A stretch of 64,000 nt of DNA. Origin: a virus. Below are positions 43,950 to 48,394 of this stretch, in pieces; the first letter of the stretch is position 1; each line of letters starts with the position of its first letter. The position numbers and the translations under genes were made by a program. The stretch is from positions 20,867 through 84,866 of the IMG/VR virus record IMGVR_UViG_3300034407_003683; one strand, written 5' to 3'. The notes below the pieces were generated by a model. The model was not told the DNA's origin. It ran no database searches and worked only from the letters and a program-made list of their open reading frames with translations.

Positions 43950-44444
43950 ATGGCATATTCAGGCAAATACAAACCAAACATTAAGAAATACAAGGGTGAT
44001 CCGGACAAAGTGACATATAGGTCACATTGGGAAAAACTTTGTTTTATGTGGTGTGATCGTAACCCAGAGATAAAAAATTGGAGCTCTGAAGAAATAGTAG
44101 TTCCATACTACTGGGATATTGATAAAAGATATCATAGATATTTTGTTGATCTTAAAATTACATTCAATAATGGCAAAACTATATTGGTTGAAATTAAGCC
44201 GGCCAAGGAAACAGAACCACCAAAGAATCCAAATAAGAGTAAGCGATACATAGGAGAGGCAATGACCTATGTAAAGAACATGAATAAGTGGGAAGCCGCA
44301 AATTCTTTTGCCAAGGACAGAGGATGGGATTTTCAAATATGGACAGAAAATACTTTAAAGTCCATGGGTATTATGAAAGAACAAAAAGGTAAGATAAAAC
44401 CATTGAAACCACTAAAACCATATCGTAAAAAACCTAAAAAATAA
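43950..44444 (+). CDS. gp4: Head completion nuclease gp4
   Basis: KYKGDPDKVTYRSHWE...WSSEEIVVPY...HRYFVD...LVEIKP...NMNKWEAA. Confidence 0.92.
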   Translation: MAYSGKYKPNIKKYKGDPDKVTYRSHWEKLCFMWCDRNPEIKNWSSEEIVVPYYWDIDKRYHRYFVDLKITFNNGKTILVEIKPAKETEPPKNPNKSKRYIGEAMTYVKNMNKWEAANSFAKDRGWDFQIWTENTLKSMGIMKEQKGKIKPLKPLKPYRKKPKK

Positions 44445-44457: not shown

Positions 44458-45048
44458 ATGAGTAGTTTATTTGCAAAATTAGAATATGAAGCATTCCGAT
44501 CCGGAATTAATCCTCGCACTAAAGAAGCACAGGATTGGTTTCGTAAAAAAGCACAGCAGATGCGACGGATCAATCGAACTGAATTATTACAAGATGATCA
44601 GGTAAAGTTAGCAAATAGACAAAATCCTTTAATCGGTTCTATGAATATGTTTTTCTATGATCCAAAGACAAAGGATACTCTGCCCTTCTACGATAGATTT
44701 CCATTGGCTATTATCGTAGGACCCGCAGAGAAGGGATTTTATGGTTTGAATCTACACTATTTGCCACCAGTATTAAGAGCAAAAATGCTGGATGCTTTAT
44801 TGGATATTACTAATAATAAAAAATATGATTCAACAACGCGTTTTCAAATGTCATATAAGATGTTACAATCATCTAGTAAATTGAGATATTTCAAACCATG
44901 TTTCAAACACTATCTTACATCTCATGTAAAATCTAGGTTGGCTCGAGTCGAAGCACCAGAATGGGAAATTGCAACCTTCCTACCAACAGCCAGTTGGGAG
45001 AAGTCAAGTGCAGCAAATGTCTACAGAGAATCGAGGAAAGCCTTATGA
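44458..45048 (+). CDS. gp2: DNA end protector protein gp2
   Basis: GSMNMFFYDPKTKDTLPFYDRFPL...FYGLNLHYLPP...CFKHYL...WEIATFLP. Confidence 0.92.
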   Translation: MSSLFAKLEYEAFRSGINPRTKEAQDWFRKKAQQMRRINRTELLQDDQVKLANRQNPLIGSMNMFFYDPKTKDTLPFYDRFPLAIIVGPAEKGFYGLNLHYLPPVLRAKMLDALLDITNNKKYDSTTRFQMSYKMLQSSSKLRYFKPCFKHYLTSHVKSRLARVEAPEWEIATFLPTASWEKSSAANVYRESRKAL

Positions 45049-45737
45049 GTAGTATAGATCAACTAAAATCACTTGCATCATCTAAATTAGGATTTGCAAG
45101 AACAAATCAATTTTTGGTTGAATTACCTACCACTTTTAGTGGTACTGGTGGCTTTTTAGGGCAGTTAACCACATTACTTACCAGTGGTGTAGGTTTAGGT
45201 TCTGGTGGTGGTGATCTTAATATACTTTGTGCTAATGCAACATTGCCTGGTAAACAAATTATAACACATGAACGTAGAATTGGTATGGAGTTTCAAAAGG
45301 TTGCCTATGGTTATGCAGTCGATGATGTAACACTCACATTCTATGCACTAAATGATTATGGCGTTCGTAAATACTTTGATGAATGGAAAAATACCATATT
45401 AAATGAGAATGGTAATATTGCTGGTTATAAAAAAGATTATGTAAAAGATATTAAAATACATCAATTAAGAAAACCAATTAAAAATATTGGTACTAATGCA
45501 GGACCTATTAAAGTAAACATTGGATTGGGTGGTGGTTCTGTATATTCTGTAAGGCTAATAGATGCCTTTCCAACAACAATACAAGCGATTGAATTAAACA
45601 ATGACATGGATGGACTGGTGCAGATATCAGTTCAAATGTCATATACAAATTGGGAACCAGTAAGTAGTGGTCAAGGCTGGATTCAAGCCTCTGGCGGTAT
45701 TGCTGGCGGCCTAGGTGGATTATCTAATTTTTTATAG
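45045..45737 (+). CDS. gp54: Baseplate tail-tube initiator gp54 (tube-fold). Start corrected from 44961 to the ATG at 45045
   Basis: ARTNQFLVEL, LC.NATLPG, DDVTLTFY...YFDEW and DAFPTTI..IEL. ATGA overlap with the gp2 stop, preceded by GAGG. Confidence 0.75.
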   Translation: MSSIDQLKSLASSKLGFARTNQFLVELPTTFSGTGGFLGQLTTLLTSGVGLGSGGGDLNILCANATLPGKQIITHERRIGMEFQKVAYGYAVDDVTLTFYALNDYGVRKYFDEWKNTILNENGNIAGYKKDYVKDIKIHQLRKPIKNIGTNAGPIKVNIGLGGGSVYSVRLIDAFPTTIQAIELNNDMDGLVQISVQMSYTNWEPVSSGQGWIQASGGIAGGLGGLSNFL

Positions 45738-45745
45738 GAGTTATT

Positions 45746-45985
45746 ATGGGTAAGAAAAAACAAAGAGCACATCAGACATCAAAGGGTCAACGTAAATCAC
45801 AAGACTCACGATGGACTAAAGAGGCTCGTAGAGAATGGGTTGGTAGTACTGCACAGTTGACTGCAAAGGTTGCGGCATTTAAAAAGGGTAAGAATGTCAT
45901 GTTGACTATTAAAAACCCTAATACCAATGAAACAAATAAACCGTTTATTCGGGTGAATGCAAAGGACGTTTGGAGAACTGCATAA
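45746..45985 (+). CDS. Small basic hypothetical protein
   Basis: 79 aa, GGAG SD, in operon context. C-terminal NPNTNETNKPFIRV motif. Confidence 0.7.
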   Translation: MGKKKQRAHQTSKGQRKSQDSRWTKEARREWVGSTAQLTAKVAAFKKGKNVMLTIKNPNTNETNKPFIRVNAKDVWRTA

Positions 45986-46698
45986 TGGCACTGCCAAGAT
46001 TGAATGAATCACCACAGTATGAATTAGTTATACCTTCTACCAAAAAAACTATACAATTTAGACCTTTTTTGGTAAAAGAACAAAAGGTATTGATGATTGC
46101 TTATGAATCACAAGATCGTAAGCAAATTTTAAATTCTATTTTAAATACCATTGAAGCTTGTGCACCAGAAATTAATGCAAAGACACTTTCTGCTTATGAT
46201 ATTGATTATATTTTTACAAAGATTAGAACAAAATCTGTTGGAGAAAAAGCTACTATTATTGCAACTTGTAATGAATGTGAACATAAGAATGAAATAGATG
46301 TTGATTTGGATGGTGCATATATTGACGGCGATGTAAAAAATAACATTATTAAAATAACAGATGAAATTTCAATTAAAATGAGATATCCAAGTTATTATGA
46401 AATGATTAATAATGATATCATCACATCGGACAATGCTACTGGTAGTGAAATATTAAATGAGACTGTTAAACTTTCCATTGAAAGTGTAATGACAGAAGAA
46501 GAAAATATTAGTCTTAGAGATGAGTCTGACGAGGAAATTGAAAGATTTATTAATTCATTGAAAACAGAACAGTTTGGAAAAATTAATGACTTTATTCTTT
46601 CTGTTCCTAAATTAAAATTTAATATGAACTATGTTTGTGAATCTTGTAATAAAACAAATGAAAAAGTGTTGGAGGGAATGGAGAATTTTTTTTCCTAA
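45985..46698 (+). CDS. gp26: Baseplate hub assembly protein gp26 (start at ATG 45985)
   Basis: MALP...YELVIPST...FRPFLVKEQKVL, DIDYIFTKIRTKSVGE, two CxxC motifs (CNEC, CESC), and the ending EGMENFFS. Confidence 0.9.
   Translation: MALPRLNESPQYELVIPSTKKTIQFRPFLVKEQKVLMIAYESQDRKQILNSILNTIEACAPEINAKTLSAYDIDYIFTKIRTKSVGEKATIIATCNECEHKNEIDVDLDGAYIDGDVKNNIIKITDEISIKMRYPSYYEMINNDIITSDNATGSEILNETVKLSIESVMTEEENISLRDESDEEIERFINSLKTEQFGKINDFILSVPKLKFNMNYVCESCNKTNEKVLEGMENFFS
46686..46692 (+). other. Candidate -1 ribosomal frameshift heptamer T TTT TTT at the end of gp26
   Basis: The gp26 frame reads GAG AAT TTT TTT TCC TAA. A -1 slip gives ...TTT TTC CTA AAC CTC TCT CAT, which enters gp51. Confidence 0.65.
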
Positions 46699-46868
46699 AC
46701 CTCTCTCATGATACATTAGAAAACTATTATAGGACGAACTTTCAACTATTGCAAAATTTTCATTATTCTCTTACTGAAATAGATGAAATGATGCCGTGGG
46801 AGAGAGAGGTATATTTAGCCATGTTAATGCAGGATCTTAAGGAAAAGAACGAGAGTATAAACCAATGA
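46689..46868 (+). CDS. gp51: gp51-like baseplate hub assembly segment with no start codon of its own (-1 frame extension of gp26)
   Basis: Missed by the ORF track. Reads FFLNLSHDTLENYYRTNFQLLQNFHYSLTEIDEMMPWEREVYLAMLMQDLKEKNESINQ*. The frame opens after the TGA at 46659 and has no ATG, GTG or TTG before the conserved LSH...NYY block. Its stop overlaps the next ATG. Confidence 0.8.
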   Translation, partial: FFLNLSHDTLENYYRTNFQLLQNFHYSLTEIDEMMPWEREVYLAMLMQDLKEKNESINQ

Positions 46869-48394
46869 CAACACTAGCTGATATTAATAATACGCTTATA
46901 GAACAATCCGATGTATTAAGAGATAATAATACCGGAATAGAAAAGCTCACTAGAACAGTTGGTGTTTTTACCAGAAGTTTTAGACAAAGCGCATTAGATA
47001 ATTTAGAAGCTAGCCGTGAAGTAAGTCAAGGTACATCCGGTGCTGCTACCATTCAACAAACCCAACAAAACATACAAACAGATAGTCCCTCAGGTGGTGG
47101 ATTTTTAGAATTTTTAGGATTAGGTCGATTAGGTACTATGTTAGCCAGTGGTATTGGTTTGGCAATGGTTGGTGGTTTATTTAAATCTTTACTTAAAAAA
47201 GGTATTTTTGGTGCTGCTGCTGTTTTTCTAGCCGATGAAATTGGTGACTGGGTTAGAAATGCTACTGGTAGTCAGTTATATGGCGACCTTACTGAAGCTG
47301 GTATAGTTGGTGCTGGTGTTGGTTCGATATTTGGTCCAAAGGGTGCCATTGCTGGAGCTCTTATTACGGCAGTACAATCCGCATCAACAAAATTAGGTAA
47401 GTATATTGAGACAGAAACTGGCAATTTAAAATATGATTTTAATGTGCTTTTAGGTCAAACCGCACAGGCAGTAACCGGTATAGCTGGTGCGGCCGGTATT
47501 GGTTTTATGATGGGAGGTCCAATTGGCGCACTCATCGGTGGTACTGTTGCAGCTGGTCTGCAATTACATGATGCTATGGAAAGATATAAAAATGATCCTG
47601 CATTTCAAAAGCAAGTGGATGATGCAAAGAAGAAAATAGAAGAAACACTTGCTAGCATTAAAGATACTTTTCTAAATACAATTAACAAATATTTGGATGA
47701 TTTTGTTACAACAGATGCTGAAAAGAAAGCAGTAACAGATGCCATGAGCCAAACTACTGCTGGACAAAAAATGTTAGAAAGAGAAAGAATCGCCGAAAAT
47801 CAAATTAGCACATTGGGTAGCCTTAGAGAAAAGGCAGAAGGTAGTAGAGATATATCTGAATTAACAGCAATAGCAGCAGAAGCTGGAGTTAATATTAGTA
47901 ATATGAGTAAAGATCCGATGTTATTAGCGGTGGGAATTTATCAGGCAATAATGAAAAGGCAGGACGAATTAAAAGAATCGCTAAAGGATGTAAGAATTGA
48001 AAGAAAAAATCTGGAGAGACAACTTAGCATCAAACAAACTACAAGCGGCGAGAGCTCTACAAGAATTGACAGTAGGATTGCCGCCATTTCGGCACAATTA
48101 AATAATCCTAATGTTGTAGGAGATCAAAAAACCATTTTGGAATCCCAGCTTATAGCATTAAGAAAAGAAAAAGCATTATTAGAAAAATCAGTTACTAATA
48201 ATGGGGCAACTCTTACAAATGCTATTAGGGATATGAGAGGACCAGATGCTGGTTATATTAATGCAGTTGACGCATCAACTACTAACAATATTGGAAGTGC
48301 TTCCACCACCCTCGTAGGTTCCGGTACTAGTACCATGGACATAAATAATCCGAACTTTATGAGAGCGATGGAAGCTCGTTTGGTTGGACGTTAG
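46865..48394 (+). CDS. Tape-measure-like protein (gp29 equivalent)
   Basis: Helical 509 aa protein with Gly/Ala-rich hydrophobic GAIAG/GALIG segments and coiled coils. Follows gp26/gp51. Confidence 0.6.
   Translation: MTTLADINNTLIEQSDVLRDNNTGIEKLTRTVGVFTRSFRQSALDNLEASREVSQGTSGAATIQQTQQNIQTDSPSGGGFLEFLGLGRLGTMLASGIGLAMVGGLFKSLLKKGIFGAAAVFLADEIGDWVRNATGSQLYGDLTEAGIVGAGVGSIFGPKGAIAGALITAVQSASTKLGKYIETETGNLKYDFNVLLGQTAQAVTGIAGAAGIGFMMGGPIGALIGGTVAAGLQLHDAMERYKNDPAFQKQVDDAKKKIEETLASIKDTFLNTINKYLDDFVTTDAEKKAVTDAMSQTTAGQKMLERERIAENQISTLGSLREKAEGSRDISELTAIAAEAGVNISNMSKDPMLLAVGIYQAIMKRQDELKESLKDVRIERKNLERQLSIKQTTSGESSTRIDSRIAAISAQLNNPNVVGDQKTILESQLIALRKEKALLEKSVTNNGATLTNAIRDMRGPDAGYINAVDASTTNNIGSASTTLVGSGTSTMDINNPNFMRAMEARLVGR

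What the first reader, a model, noticed from the sequence alone, without database searches (positions are those of the whole stretch)
46662..46868. Programmed -1 frameshift fusing gp26 to gp51 right before the tape measure gene (lambda G/GT-like)
Seen: gp26 ends GAG AAT TTT TTT TCC TAA, containing a perfect X XXY YYZ heptamer (T TTT TTT, 46686-46692). The gp51-like sequence (LSHDTLENYYRTNFQL...MMPWEREVY) is in the -1 frame. That frame is open from 46662 to 46868 with no ATG, GTG or TTG ahead of the conserved block, and its stop overlaps the ATG of the tape-measure-like gene. Known: tail assembly chaperones of siphoviruses and many myoviruses (lambda G/GT) use a -1 frameshift directly upstream of the tape measure gene. 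T4 itself is not known to use one, and gp26/gp51 are annotated as separate hub factors. Inference: in this lineage gp26 and gp26-51 are the G/GT equivalents, and annotated short gp51 genes may have false starts.
Basis: partly seen in the sequence, partly recalled or inferred. Interest (0 to 1): 0.8.

Follow-up and report, generated by a model that had tools for sequence, protein, structure and literature searches.

The report
Frameshifted tail chaperone gene gp26/gp51
This uncultured marine T4-like phage very probably makes a short and a long tail-assembly chaperone from one gene by letting some ribosomes slip back one base on a run of T's; the signal is real and kept in every relative, but the trick was already published for T4-like phages in 2022.

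Summary
gp26 (45985-46698, PF12322) ends GAG AAT TTT TTT TCC TAA. The heptamer T_TTT_TTT (46686-46692) is in X_XXY_YYZ phase. The -1 frame is open from 46662 to 46868, has no start before TTG 46749, and its stop overlaps the ATG of the next, tape-measure-like ORF.

All 54 distinct junctions from relatives (Kyanoviridae, pelagiphage, Melnitz, KVP40, phiN3, IMG/VR contigs) keep T_TTT_TTN in phase and the gp51-like block in the -1 frame. There is no length variation over the first 75 nt after the heptamer. Synonymous sites are fixed far beyond codon usage (about 1e-12).

T4 gp51 is a gp26 paralogue plus this same extension in frame. It aligns to the modelled fusion without a gap. T4 gene 26, which has no extension, has lost the heptamer.

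An SD-like GGAGG lies 9-10 nt upstream and is kept at the codon level (P=4e-8). No conserved downstream RNA structure was found. Contigs from four separate metagenome studies reproduce the T8 run.

The gp26 N-terminal domain best matches solved tail assembly chaperones.

Not new: papers citing Vladimirov, Gautam and Davidson (Virology 2022) attribute this idea to that paper. This scan has also reported it on at least 35 other genomes. It is a new member of a known kind.

The parts
45045..45737 (+). Tail-tube-like gene (gp19/gp54-type paralogue), upstream member of the tube - chaperone - tape measure order
   Evidence: phrog_45 tail tube, E=5e-34. The positional equivalent is annotated as tail tube or tube initiator in C48C1, HTVC008M, KVP40 and phiN3.
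45985..46698 (+). gp26 = short chaperone form (TAC-N), 237 aa, zero-frame product
   Evidence: PF12322 T4_baseplate, E=2.2e-54, and phrog_150, E=1.2e-55. 876 homologues were found, and the best 120 are all 235-239 aa. AF2 model has mean pLDDT 86. Residues 1-90 best match HK97 TAC 2ob9 and its relatives 3fgx and 3klu, Z 6.5-7.2.
46671..46676 (+). SD-like GGAGGG, 9 nt upstream of the heptamer; likely frameshift stimulator of the dnaX type (inferred)
   Evidence: Mean anti-SD duplex energy at this offset is -7.9 kcal/mol in 34 representatives, against -1.3 in the gene body. The Glu codon is GAG in 20 of 27 against 6.7 expected, P=4e-8. The preceding codon ends in G in 16 of 34 against 7.6 expected, P=7e-4.
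46686..46692 (+). Slippery heptamer T_TTT_TTT (X_XXY_YYZ) in gp26 phase; site of the -1 slip
   Evidence: T_TTT_TTN in phase in 54 of 54 distinct junctions. In 34 of 34 representatives below 70% identity the preceding codon is NNT and the first Phe codon is TTT; joint probability from codon usage is about 1e-12. In 4 representatives the -1 frame opens exactly at the heptamer, and the zero-frame stop follows 0-6 nt after it, so the slip can only occur here.
46692..46868 (+). -1 frame extension (58 codons plus TGA), the 'gp51' segment; C-terminal part of the long form (TAC-NC, 294 aa = 236 + 58)
   Evidence: phrog_634 gp51, E=1.3e-22, and the C-terminal positions 234-282 of phrog_150. It is colinear with T4 gp51 residues ~200-249. 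The 82-column alignment of 34 representatives is gap-free. None of the 34 has a stop in this frame, and all 34 have stops in both other frames. Codon-position-3 entropy is 1.23 against 0.78 and 0.64 upstream of any common ATG.
46749..46868 (+). Only conventional ORF in this frame (TTG start, 39 aa); would cut off 19 conserved codons. Regarded as a false gene model
46865..48394 (+). 509-aa tape-measure-like ORF (gp29 position); its ATG overlaps the stop of the extension
   Evidence: The call rests on position; glycine-rich hydrophobic stretches are visible in the translation. Protein-atlas features point to a cluster carrying PF25671 T4_Tape_measure (score 0.92, 153 shared features; a lead only). 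There is no BLASTP similarity to T4 gp29 or to the HTVC008M tape measure, and only weak similarity to the positional equivalent in C48C1 (E=6e-6).

Best explanation
gp26 and 'gp51' are one recoded gene. Most ribosomes read gp26 to its TAA and release the 237-aa short form. On T_TTT_TTT (46686-46692), a minority slip back one base with both Phe-tRNAs. This slip is probably helped by 16S rRNA pairing with the GGAGGG 9 nt upstream. These ribosomes then read 58 more codons in the -1 frame and make a 294-aa long form (...GMENFFFLNLSHD...). The two products correspond to T4 gp26 and T4 gp51. They are the short (TAC-N) and long (TAC-NC) tail assembly chaperones that act on the hub and tape measure during tail initiation, as G and GT do in lambda. 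Shown here: the sequence anatomy, its conservation, the colinearity with T4 gp51 and the TAC-like fold. Inferred: that the slip happens, how often it happens, the stimulator role of the SD-like element, and what each domain binds.
For: Anatomy. Conservation: 54 of 54 distinct junctions keep heptamer, phase and -1 frame. The synonymous sites that make the heptamer are fixed in 34 of 34 representatives, about 1e-12 by codon usage. The second codon may be Phe or Leu (TTT/TTC/TTA/TTG), so the nucleotides rather than the residue are conserved. There are no indels between the heptamer and the extension, no stop in the -1 frame, and codon periodicity in the -1 frame upstream of any start. 27 of 34 representatives have no start codon before the conserved block. 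The allowed shift window collapses onto the heptamer. T4 gp51 hits PF12322 over residues 1-201 (E=3.9e-52) and phrog_150 end to end, and it aligns to the modelled fusions without a gap at the junction. T4 gene 26 ends ...GAG TTC TTT GAG TTA CTA TAA: it keeps FF but not the heptamer. Only one PF12322 gene is present in the held 97.9 kb of this genome. The SD-like element is conserved at the codon level. The top three structural matches of 48,161 chains are tail assembly chaperone folds. Contigs from four separate studies reproduce T8. Published context.
Against: No protein, ribosome-profiling or reporter data are available for any member. No conserved downstream RNA structure was found. That is compatible with low-efficiency sites such as lambda G/GT, but it leaves the efficiency unknown. 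Seven of 34 representatives (for example P-SSM2, S-H9-2, KVP40, phiN3) have an ATG or GTG in the -1 frame just after the gp26 stop, so a free short gp51 could also be made in those phages. The L-E-G residues that encode the SD-like motif are themselves conserved, and T4 gp26 has AGAGG at the same place without shifting. The genome record is only 58% complete, so a second full-length gp51-type gene cannot be excluded.
Confidence: 0.85

Rival explanations
1. gp51 is an independent small gene. It would be translated by its own initiation (TTG 46749, or a non-canonical start) or by termination-reinitiation after the gp26 stop. On this view the T run is just the codons of a conserved Phe-Phe.
For: GenBank records annotate short gp51 ORFs. 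Seven of 34 representatives have a start codon within 8 nt after the heptamer. FF is conserved as residues even in T4 gp26.
Against: In the window the first start removes 19 conserved codons. 27 of 34 representatives have no start before the block. The -1 phase and the exact spacing are invariant. The synonymous T's of the heptamer are fixed at about 1e-12, and the second codon can change to Leu while keeping TT. T4, which does not need the slip, has GAG TTC TTT. T4 gp51 shows that the extension works when fused to a gp26-like domain.
Confidence: 0.07
2. The long form arises mainly by transcriptional slippage. RNA polymerase would add one U on the T8 run, so a fraction of mRNAs carry gp26 and the extension in one frame.
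For: The window and 15 of 34 representatives have T8. Homopolymer runs can cause polymerase slippage (general knowledge; reviewed in PMC5009743).
Against: Half of the representatives have only T6 (17 of 34) and two have T7, which is short for productive slippage. Polymerase slippage does not need the run to sit in X_XXY_YYZ phase, yet the phase is invariant and the preceding codon always ends in T. An SD-like element at the dnaX spacing points to the ribosome.
Confidence: 0.05
3. Artefact or decay: the T8 run is a homopolymer sequencing or assembly error in a single fused gene, or a recent frameshift mutation.
For: Homopolymers are error-prone. T4 has an in-frame fused gene.
Against: Contigs from four separate studies span the site with no gap. 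Every relative down to 22-35% identity has the same two-frame layout. All 120 best homologues stop at 235-239 aa.
Confidence: 0.01

Closest known systems
[quoted passage not shown] Vladimirov, Gautam and Davidson, Virology 2022;566:9-15 (PMID 34826709)
   Same: Same protein family (PF12322, phrog_150, phrog_634). Same short/long pair; the long form equals the short form plus the ~50-aa extension. Citing texts say that paper reports poly-T -1 slippery signals in TAC-N genes of T4-like phages, and that some T4-like phages instead carry a short gene plus a long fused gene.
   Different: T4 itself encodes the pair as two divergently transcribed genes and has no heptamer. Here one gene plus a slip does the job. 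I could not read the paper itself. I therefore cannot say whether it covers this clade, the SD-like element or the scale of the mis-annotation.
Lambda gpG/gpGT and the conserved -1 frameshift of tail assembly chaperone genes (Levin et al. 1993; Xu, Hendrix and Duda 2004; summarised in PMC5009743)
   Same: Gene order is tube gene, chaperone, -1 extension, tape measure. The shift is at the very 3' end of the short ORF, and the extension has no start of its own. The N-terminal domain of gp26 best matches the HK97 chaperone fold (2ob9, Z 6.8).
   Different: No sequence match to any other Pfam family, the Pfam TAC and lambda T-domain families included, at E<=0.1. gp26 is about twice as long, with an extra four-cysteine domain. 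The heptamer is T_TTT_TTN rather than G_GGA_AAG (my knowledge). The partners are hub proteins of a contractile tail. PMC5009743 still lists T4 as the exception.
P2 gpE/gpE+E' (myovirus tail chaperones; Christie et al. 2002; from my own knowledge)
   Same: A contractile-tail phage with a U-rich heptamer (T_TTT_TTG, as I recall it) and a -1 slip just before the tape measure gene.
   Different: Unrelated sequence families, and a higher reported efficiency (2-3 fold that of lambda). Not tested here.
E. coli dnaX tau/gamma frameshift (Larsen et al. 1994; from my own knowledge)
   Same: An internal SD-like sequence about 10 nt upstream of an X_XXY_YYZ heptamer. Here GGAGGG lies 9 nt upstream and is conserved at synonymous sites.
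   Different: dnaX also has a strong downstream stem-loop and about 50% efficiency. No conserved downstream structure was found here. The function is unrelated.

Membership tests
T4 gp26/gp51 family (PF12322 T4_baseplate; phrog_150, phrog_634) | Significant match of the zero-frame product to the family profile | tested here: met
   PF12322 E=2.2e-54 over residues 10-236; phrog_150 E=1.2e-55.
T4 gp26/gp51 family (PF12322 T4_baseplate; phrog_150, phrog_634) | Long form = gp26-like domain followed directly by the gp51 C-terminal extension | tested here: met
   The extension hits phrog_634 (E=1.3e-22) and positions 234-282 of phrog_150. The modelled fusion aligns to T4 gp51 with no gap at the junction.
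Programmed -1 ribosomal frameshift cassette | X_XXY_YYZ heptamer in the zero-frame phase inside the overlap of the two frames | tested here: met
   T_TTT_TTT at 46686-46692. Present in 54 of 54 distinct junctions; the shift window collapses onto it.
Programmed -1 ribosomal frameshift cassette | Downstream frame is coding but has no initiation codon of its own | tested here: met
   First start in the window is TTG 46749. 27 of 34 representatives have none before the block. Codon periodicity and absence of stops in the -1 frame.
Programmed -1 ribosomal frameshift cassette | Selection on the slippery nucleotides beyond the protein sequence | tested here: met
   The NNT codon before the run and a TTT first Phe codon occur in 34 of 34, about 1e-12 by codon usage. 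T4 gene 26 has GAG TTC TTT.
Programmed -1 ribosomal frameshift cassette | Stimulatory element (upstream SD-like or downstream structure) | tested here: inconclusive
   The upstream GGAGG is conserved at the codon level, but it also encodes conserved residues. RNAalifold finds no consensus downstream structure, and single-sequence z-scores average -0.76.
Programmed -1 ribosomal frameshift cassette | Detection of the trans-frame protein | not testable with these tools
   No proteome or reporter data are available.
Tail assembly chaperones (lambda G/GT type) | Position between tail tube gene and tape measure gene | tested here: inconclusive
   A tube-like gene lies upstream (phrog_45). The downstream 509-aa ORF is tape-measure-like by position and by a feature-based lead only.
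Tail assembly chaperones (lambda G/GT type) | TAC fold | tested here: met
   The top three of 48,161 chains are 3fgx (Z 7.2; I recall it as TAC-like), 2ob9 HK97 TAC (Z 6.8) and 3klu YqbN (Z 6.5; I recall it as a prophage TAC relative). They cover model residues 1-94 and 82-86 residues of each chain. Z is below the tool's caution line of 8. Foldseek found nothing.
Tail assembly chaperones (lambda G/GT type) | Sequence match to Pfam TAC or lambda T-domain families | tested here: not met
   No such family at E<=0.1 for gp26 or the extension. TACs are known to be very diverse, so this limits the family claim and not the functional analogy.
Tail assembly chaperones (lambda G/GT type) | Short form binds the tape measure; the extension binds the tube or hub protein | not testable with these tools
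   Needs pull-downs or structures.

The most novel reading that the evidence does not exclude
The ratio of short to long chaperone in marine T4-like phages may be set by a dnaX-type mechanism. In that case 16S rRNA pairs with an internal GGAGG 9-10 nt upstream of T_TTT_TTN, with no downstream RNA structure. This would hold even in phages of hosts that make little use of SD sequences. It would also follow that the several hundred short 'gp51 baseplate hub assembly catalyst' ORFs in public phage records are not genes but the tail of gp26. Whether the 2022 paper already says this I could not check.
Probability: 0.4. Interest if true: 0.4.

Novelty: new member of a known kind. Interest (0 to 1): 0.3.

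Why it matters
This closes the long-standing 'T4 is the exception' gap for the otherwise universal G/GT frameshift of long-tailed phages. T4-like phages outside the T-even group use the frameshift, and T4 replaced it with a gene duplication. In practice it shows that gp51 in Kyanoviridae, pelagiphages, Melnitz, KVP40-like and phiM12-like genomes is mis-annotated or missed, and that gp26 should carry a ribosomal-slippage join. It also gives T4 gp51, the 'essential protein of unknown function' of the hub pathway (PMC3004832), a concrete role as the long chaperone form. Because this has been published and this scan has found it repeatedly, the present window adds a well-documented example and some detail (SD-like element, negative control in T4). 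It does not add a discovery.

Tried and rejected
- Complex prediction of gp26 with the 509-aa ORF: no verdict, so not used either way.
- Foldseek of the gp26 model against PDB and AlphaFold Swiss-Prot: only noise (GTP cyclohydrolase FolE2, urate oxidase, TM below 0.2).
- phmmer of gp26 against PDB sequences: nothing.
- NCBIfam: no family for gp26, the extension, the 509-aa ORF or T4 gp51.
- BLASTP of the 509-aa ORF against T4 gp29 and the HTVC008M tape measure: nothing significant.
- RNAalifold on 34 representatives from the heptamer to +75: no consensus pairs. A short CUCUC...GAGAG hairpin folds in some sequences but not in the window.
- Sequencing runs: no RNA holder listed, so expression could not be examined.
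- Literature searches for gp26/gp51 with frameshift, paralog, cyanophage or baseplate hub assembly catalyst returned nothing relevant.
- The key paper surfaced only through the reference list of PRFect and is not held in the library. Its content is therefore known to me only through two citing sentences.

Full report
**Observation.**
gp26 runs from ATG 45985 to TAA 46696-46698 and ends GAG AAT TTT TTT TCC TAA.
- The eight T's are 46686-46693. T_TTT_TTT at 46686-46692 is in X_XXY_YYZ phase.
- The -1 frame is closed by TGA at 46659-46661 and then open to TGA at 46866-46868. That stop shares its TGA with the ATG at 46865 of a 509-aa ORF.
- The first ATG, GTG or TTG in the -1 frame is TTG 46749.
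- With a tandem slip of both Phe-tRNAs, the junction reads ...GMENFFFLNLSHD....

**What the pieces are.**
- The zero-frame product matches PF12322 (T4_baseplate, E=2.2e-54) and phrog_150 'baseplate hub'.
- The 58 codons of the -1 frame match phrog_634 'baseplate hub assembly catalyst' (gp51), E=1.3e-22. They also match the last 49 positions of the phrog_150 profile.
- The reason is that T4 gp51 (249 aa) is itself a PF12322 protein over residues 1-201 (E=3.9e-52). It matches phrog_150 from end to end.
- I aligned modelled frameshift fusions from the window, Melnitz, S-H9-2, P-SSM2, KVP40 and phiN3 with T4 gp51 and gp26. The alignment is colinear with no gap at the junction. T4 gp26 stops three residues after the Phe-Phe.
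- In T4 the two genes are adjacent but divergently transcribed.
- T4 gene 26 keeps the two Phe residues but spells them GAG TTC TTT, which is not slippery.

**Neighbourhood.**
- Upstream lie a gp4-type head completion gene, a gp2-type DNA end protector, a tail-tube-like gene (45045-45737, phrog_45) and a 79-aa ORF of unknown function.
- Downstream is the 509-aa ORF, followed by a gp32-like ORF on the other strand (my reading of the translation; its positional equivalent in C48C1 is annotated as a single-strand DNA binding protein).
- The order tube, chaperone, extension, long glycine-rich protein is the lambda V-G-T-H order.
- The tape-measure identity of the 509-aa ORF is only inferred. It has no sequence similarity to T4 gp29 or to the annotated HTVC008M tape measure. 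It has weak similarity to the positional equivalent in phage C48C1. A feature-based lead points to a T4_Tape_measure cluster, below the tool's own reliability mark.

**Comparative test.**
- A search of IMG/VR with gp26 gave 78 loci, and I added nine GenBank phages. All 54 distinct junctions have T_TTT_TTN in phase at the end of gp26 and the gp51-like block in the -1 frame.
- I took 34 representatives below 70% protein identity (down to 22-35% for KVP40, phiN3, Melnitz and the cyanophages). Heptamers: TTTTTTT 17, TTTTTTC 8, TTTTTTA 8, TTTTTTG 1.
- The codon before the run always ends in T (GAT, AAT, AGT, TCT), and the first Phe codon is always TTT. The joint probability from each gene's own codon usage is about 1e-12. 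This treats lineages as independent, which overstates it somewhat.
- The second codon may be Phe or Leu, so it is the nucleotides that are held.
- The gp26 stop follows 0, 3 or 6 nt after the heptamer. The -1 frame opens 0 to 75 nt before it, and in four representatives exactly at it. The only place where a shift can join the two frames in all lineages is therefore the heptamer.
- The 82 columns from the heptamer onward align without a single gap. None of the 34 sequences has a stop in the -1 frame, and all 34 have stops in the other two frames.
- Upstream of the first common ATG, column entropy is highest at the third position of -1 frame codons: 1.23 against 0.78 and 0.64.
- 27 of 34 representatives have no ATG, GTG or TTG before the conserved block.

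**Database annotation reflects this.**
- gp51 is absent from the ACG-2014e and ACG-2014b records.
- It starts inside the conserved block in Melnitz, C48C1 (35 aa) and HTVC008M (45 aa).
- It has a plausible start only where an ATG happens to follow the gp26 stop, as in P-SSM2, S-H9-2, KVP40 and phiN3.

**Artefact excluded.**
- Contigs from four separate estuary and marine metagenome studies span 46300-47100 or 46580-47100 with a few substitutions and no insertion or deletion.
- The 120 best of 876 protein homologues are all 235-239 aa.
- The held genome record (97.9 kb, 58% complete) has a single PF12322 gene.

**Stimulators.**
- RNAalifold finds no consensus structure downstream. Single-sequence folds are unremarkable (mean z -0.76).
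- Upstream, GGAGGG (46671-46676) lies 9 nt from the heptamer. Across the 34 representatives, the anti-SD duplex energy at this offset averages -7.9 kcal/mol, against -1.3 for comparable windows in the gene body.
- The motif encodes conserved Leu-Glu-Gly. But Glu is GAG in 20 of 27 cases where 6.7 are expected (P=4e-8). The preceding codon ends in G in 16 of 34 where 7.6 are expected (P=7e-4).
- This is the geometry of the dnaX upstream stimulator (my knowledge). I rate a stimulator role as likely but not shown. T4 gp26 has AGAGG at the same place without shifting.

**Fold.**
- An AlphaFold2 model of gp26 from 44 homologues has mean pLDDT 86.
- Foldseek against PDB and Swiss-Prot models gave nothing.
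- The exhaustive VIA-align search put three chains on top out of 48,161. They are 3fgx (Z 7.2), 2ob9 'bacteriophage HK97 tail assembly chaperone' (Z 6.8) and 3klu YqbN (Z 6.5).
- All three align to model residues 1-94 and cover most of each chain. I recall 3fgx and 3klu as members of the same chaperone fold group.
- The Z values are below the tool's caution line, but the agreement of the three top hits supports a TAC-like N-terminal domain.
- The rest of gp26 carries four invariant cysteines (C95, C98, C218, C221). Several weak structural matches over this part of the model (residues ~87-237) are small zinc-binding domains.

**Mechanism proposed.**
- Most ribosomes terminate at TAA 46696 and release the 237-aa short form.
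- A minority slip -1 on T_TTT_TTT and add 58 residues, giving a 294-aa long form equivalent to T4 gp51.
- In T4, gp51 is required for hub assembly but is absent from the particle (PMC3004832), and public records name it the hub assembly 'catalyst'. That fits a product needed in small amounts.
- By analogy with lambda (PMC5009743), the shared domain would hold the tape measure or hub, and the extension would recruit the tube or hub subunits. This part is inference.

**Rivals.**
- Independent initiation of a short gp51 does not explain the start-less conserved codons, the fixed phase and spacing, or the silent-site conservation. It may occur in addition in the seven lineages that have a start codon before the conserved block.
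- Transcriptional slippage could contribute on T8. But half of the lineages have only T6, and polymerase slippage would not need the codon phase that is invariably kept.
- An assembly error is excluded.

**Novelty.**
- PRFect (PMC10885494) cites Vladimirov, Gautam and Davidson, Virology 2022;566:9-15. It cites them for the statement that some T4-like phages carry a short TAC gene plus a long fused gene instead of frameshifting.
- PMC12846349 cites the same paper for poly-T -1 slippery signals in TAC-N genes of T4-like phages. I could not obtain the paper itself.
- This scan has reported the same arrangement on at least 35 other genomes, and several of those reports name the same paper.
- The finding is therefore correct and well supported, but it is a new member of a known kind.
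- What may go beyond the published account, and what I could not check against it, is threefold: the codon-level evidence for an upstream SD-like stimulator, the loss of the heptamer in T4 gene 26 as a natural control, and the extent of gp51 mis-annotation (520 phage records match the extension).

Noticed in passing
L087:3079-3183, L088:3055-3192, L001:2578-2721, L082 and L083 (gap 1205-1385): GenBank records of relatives annotate gp51 as 35-47 aa ORFs that start inside the conserved block (C48C1, HTVC008M, Melnitz), or do not annotate it at all (ACG-2014e, ACG-2014b). None of the nine records I opened carries a joined gp26 CDS.
   Followed up: partly
window 45746-45985: A 79-aa lysine- and arginine-rich ORF lies between the tail-tube-like gene and gp26, and its stop overlaps the gp26 ATG (TAATG). 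It matches only phrog_23239 (unknown function, E=1.3e-6).
   Followed up: no
L088:3205-3537, L001:2739-3068, L085:2699-3118: HTVC008M, Melnitz and phiN3 have an extra 110-140 aa ORF between the gp51 segment and the large tape-measure-like gene. The window, KVP40, P-SSM2 and S-H9-2 do not.
   Followed up: no
L016, L025, L026, L028 (42 nt upstream of the heptamer): Four related IMG/VR loci have an ATG in the -1 frame inside gp26, 42 nt before the heptamer. It would give an overlapping ORF that begins with a basic peptide (M-R/W-N-R-K...). It may be chance, or it may be an alternative route to the extension.
   Followed up: no
window 46773-46814: Short, high-depth contigs from other organisms in the metagenomes pile up on the stretch that encodes ...EMMPWEREVY... 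(depth up to 146 against a background of 8-17). This shows that the block is conserved at the nucleotide level among abundant relatives.
   Followed up: no
window 43950-44444: The gp4-type head completion protein (phrog_218) also matches PF08722 TnsA-like endonuclease N-terminal domain (E=4.3e-18).
   Followed up: no
whole window (G000:C1:20867-84866): The window comes from a 97.9-kb linear IMG/VR virus record rated 58% complete. Twenty DNA runs from 13 estuary, marine and seawater metagenome studies hold the stretch. The closest isolate by the gp51 segment is phage C48C1 (Kyanoviridae, 65.5% identity).
   Followed up: partly
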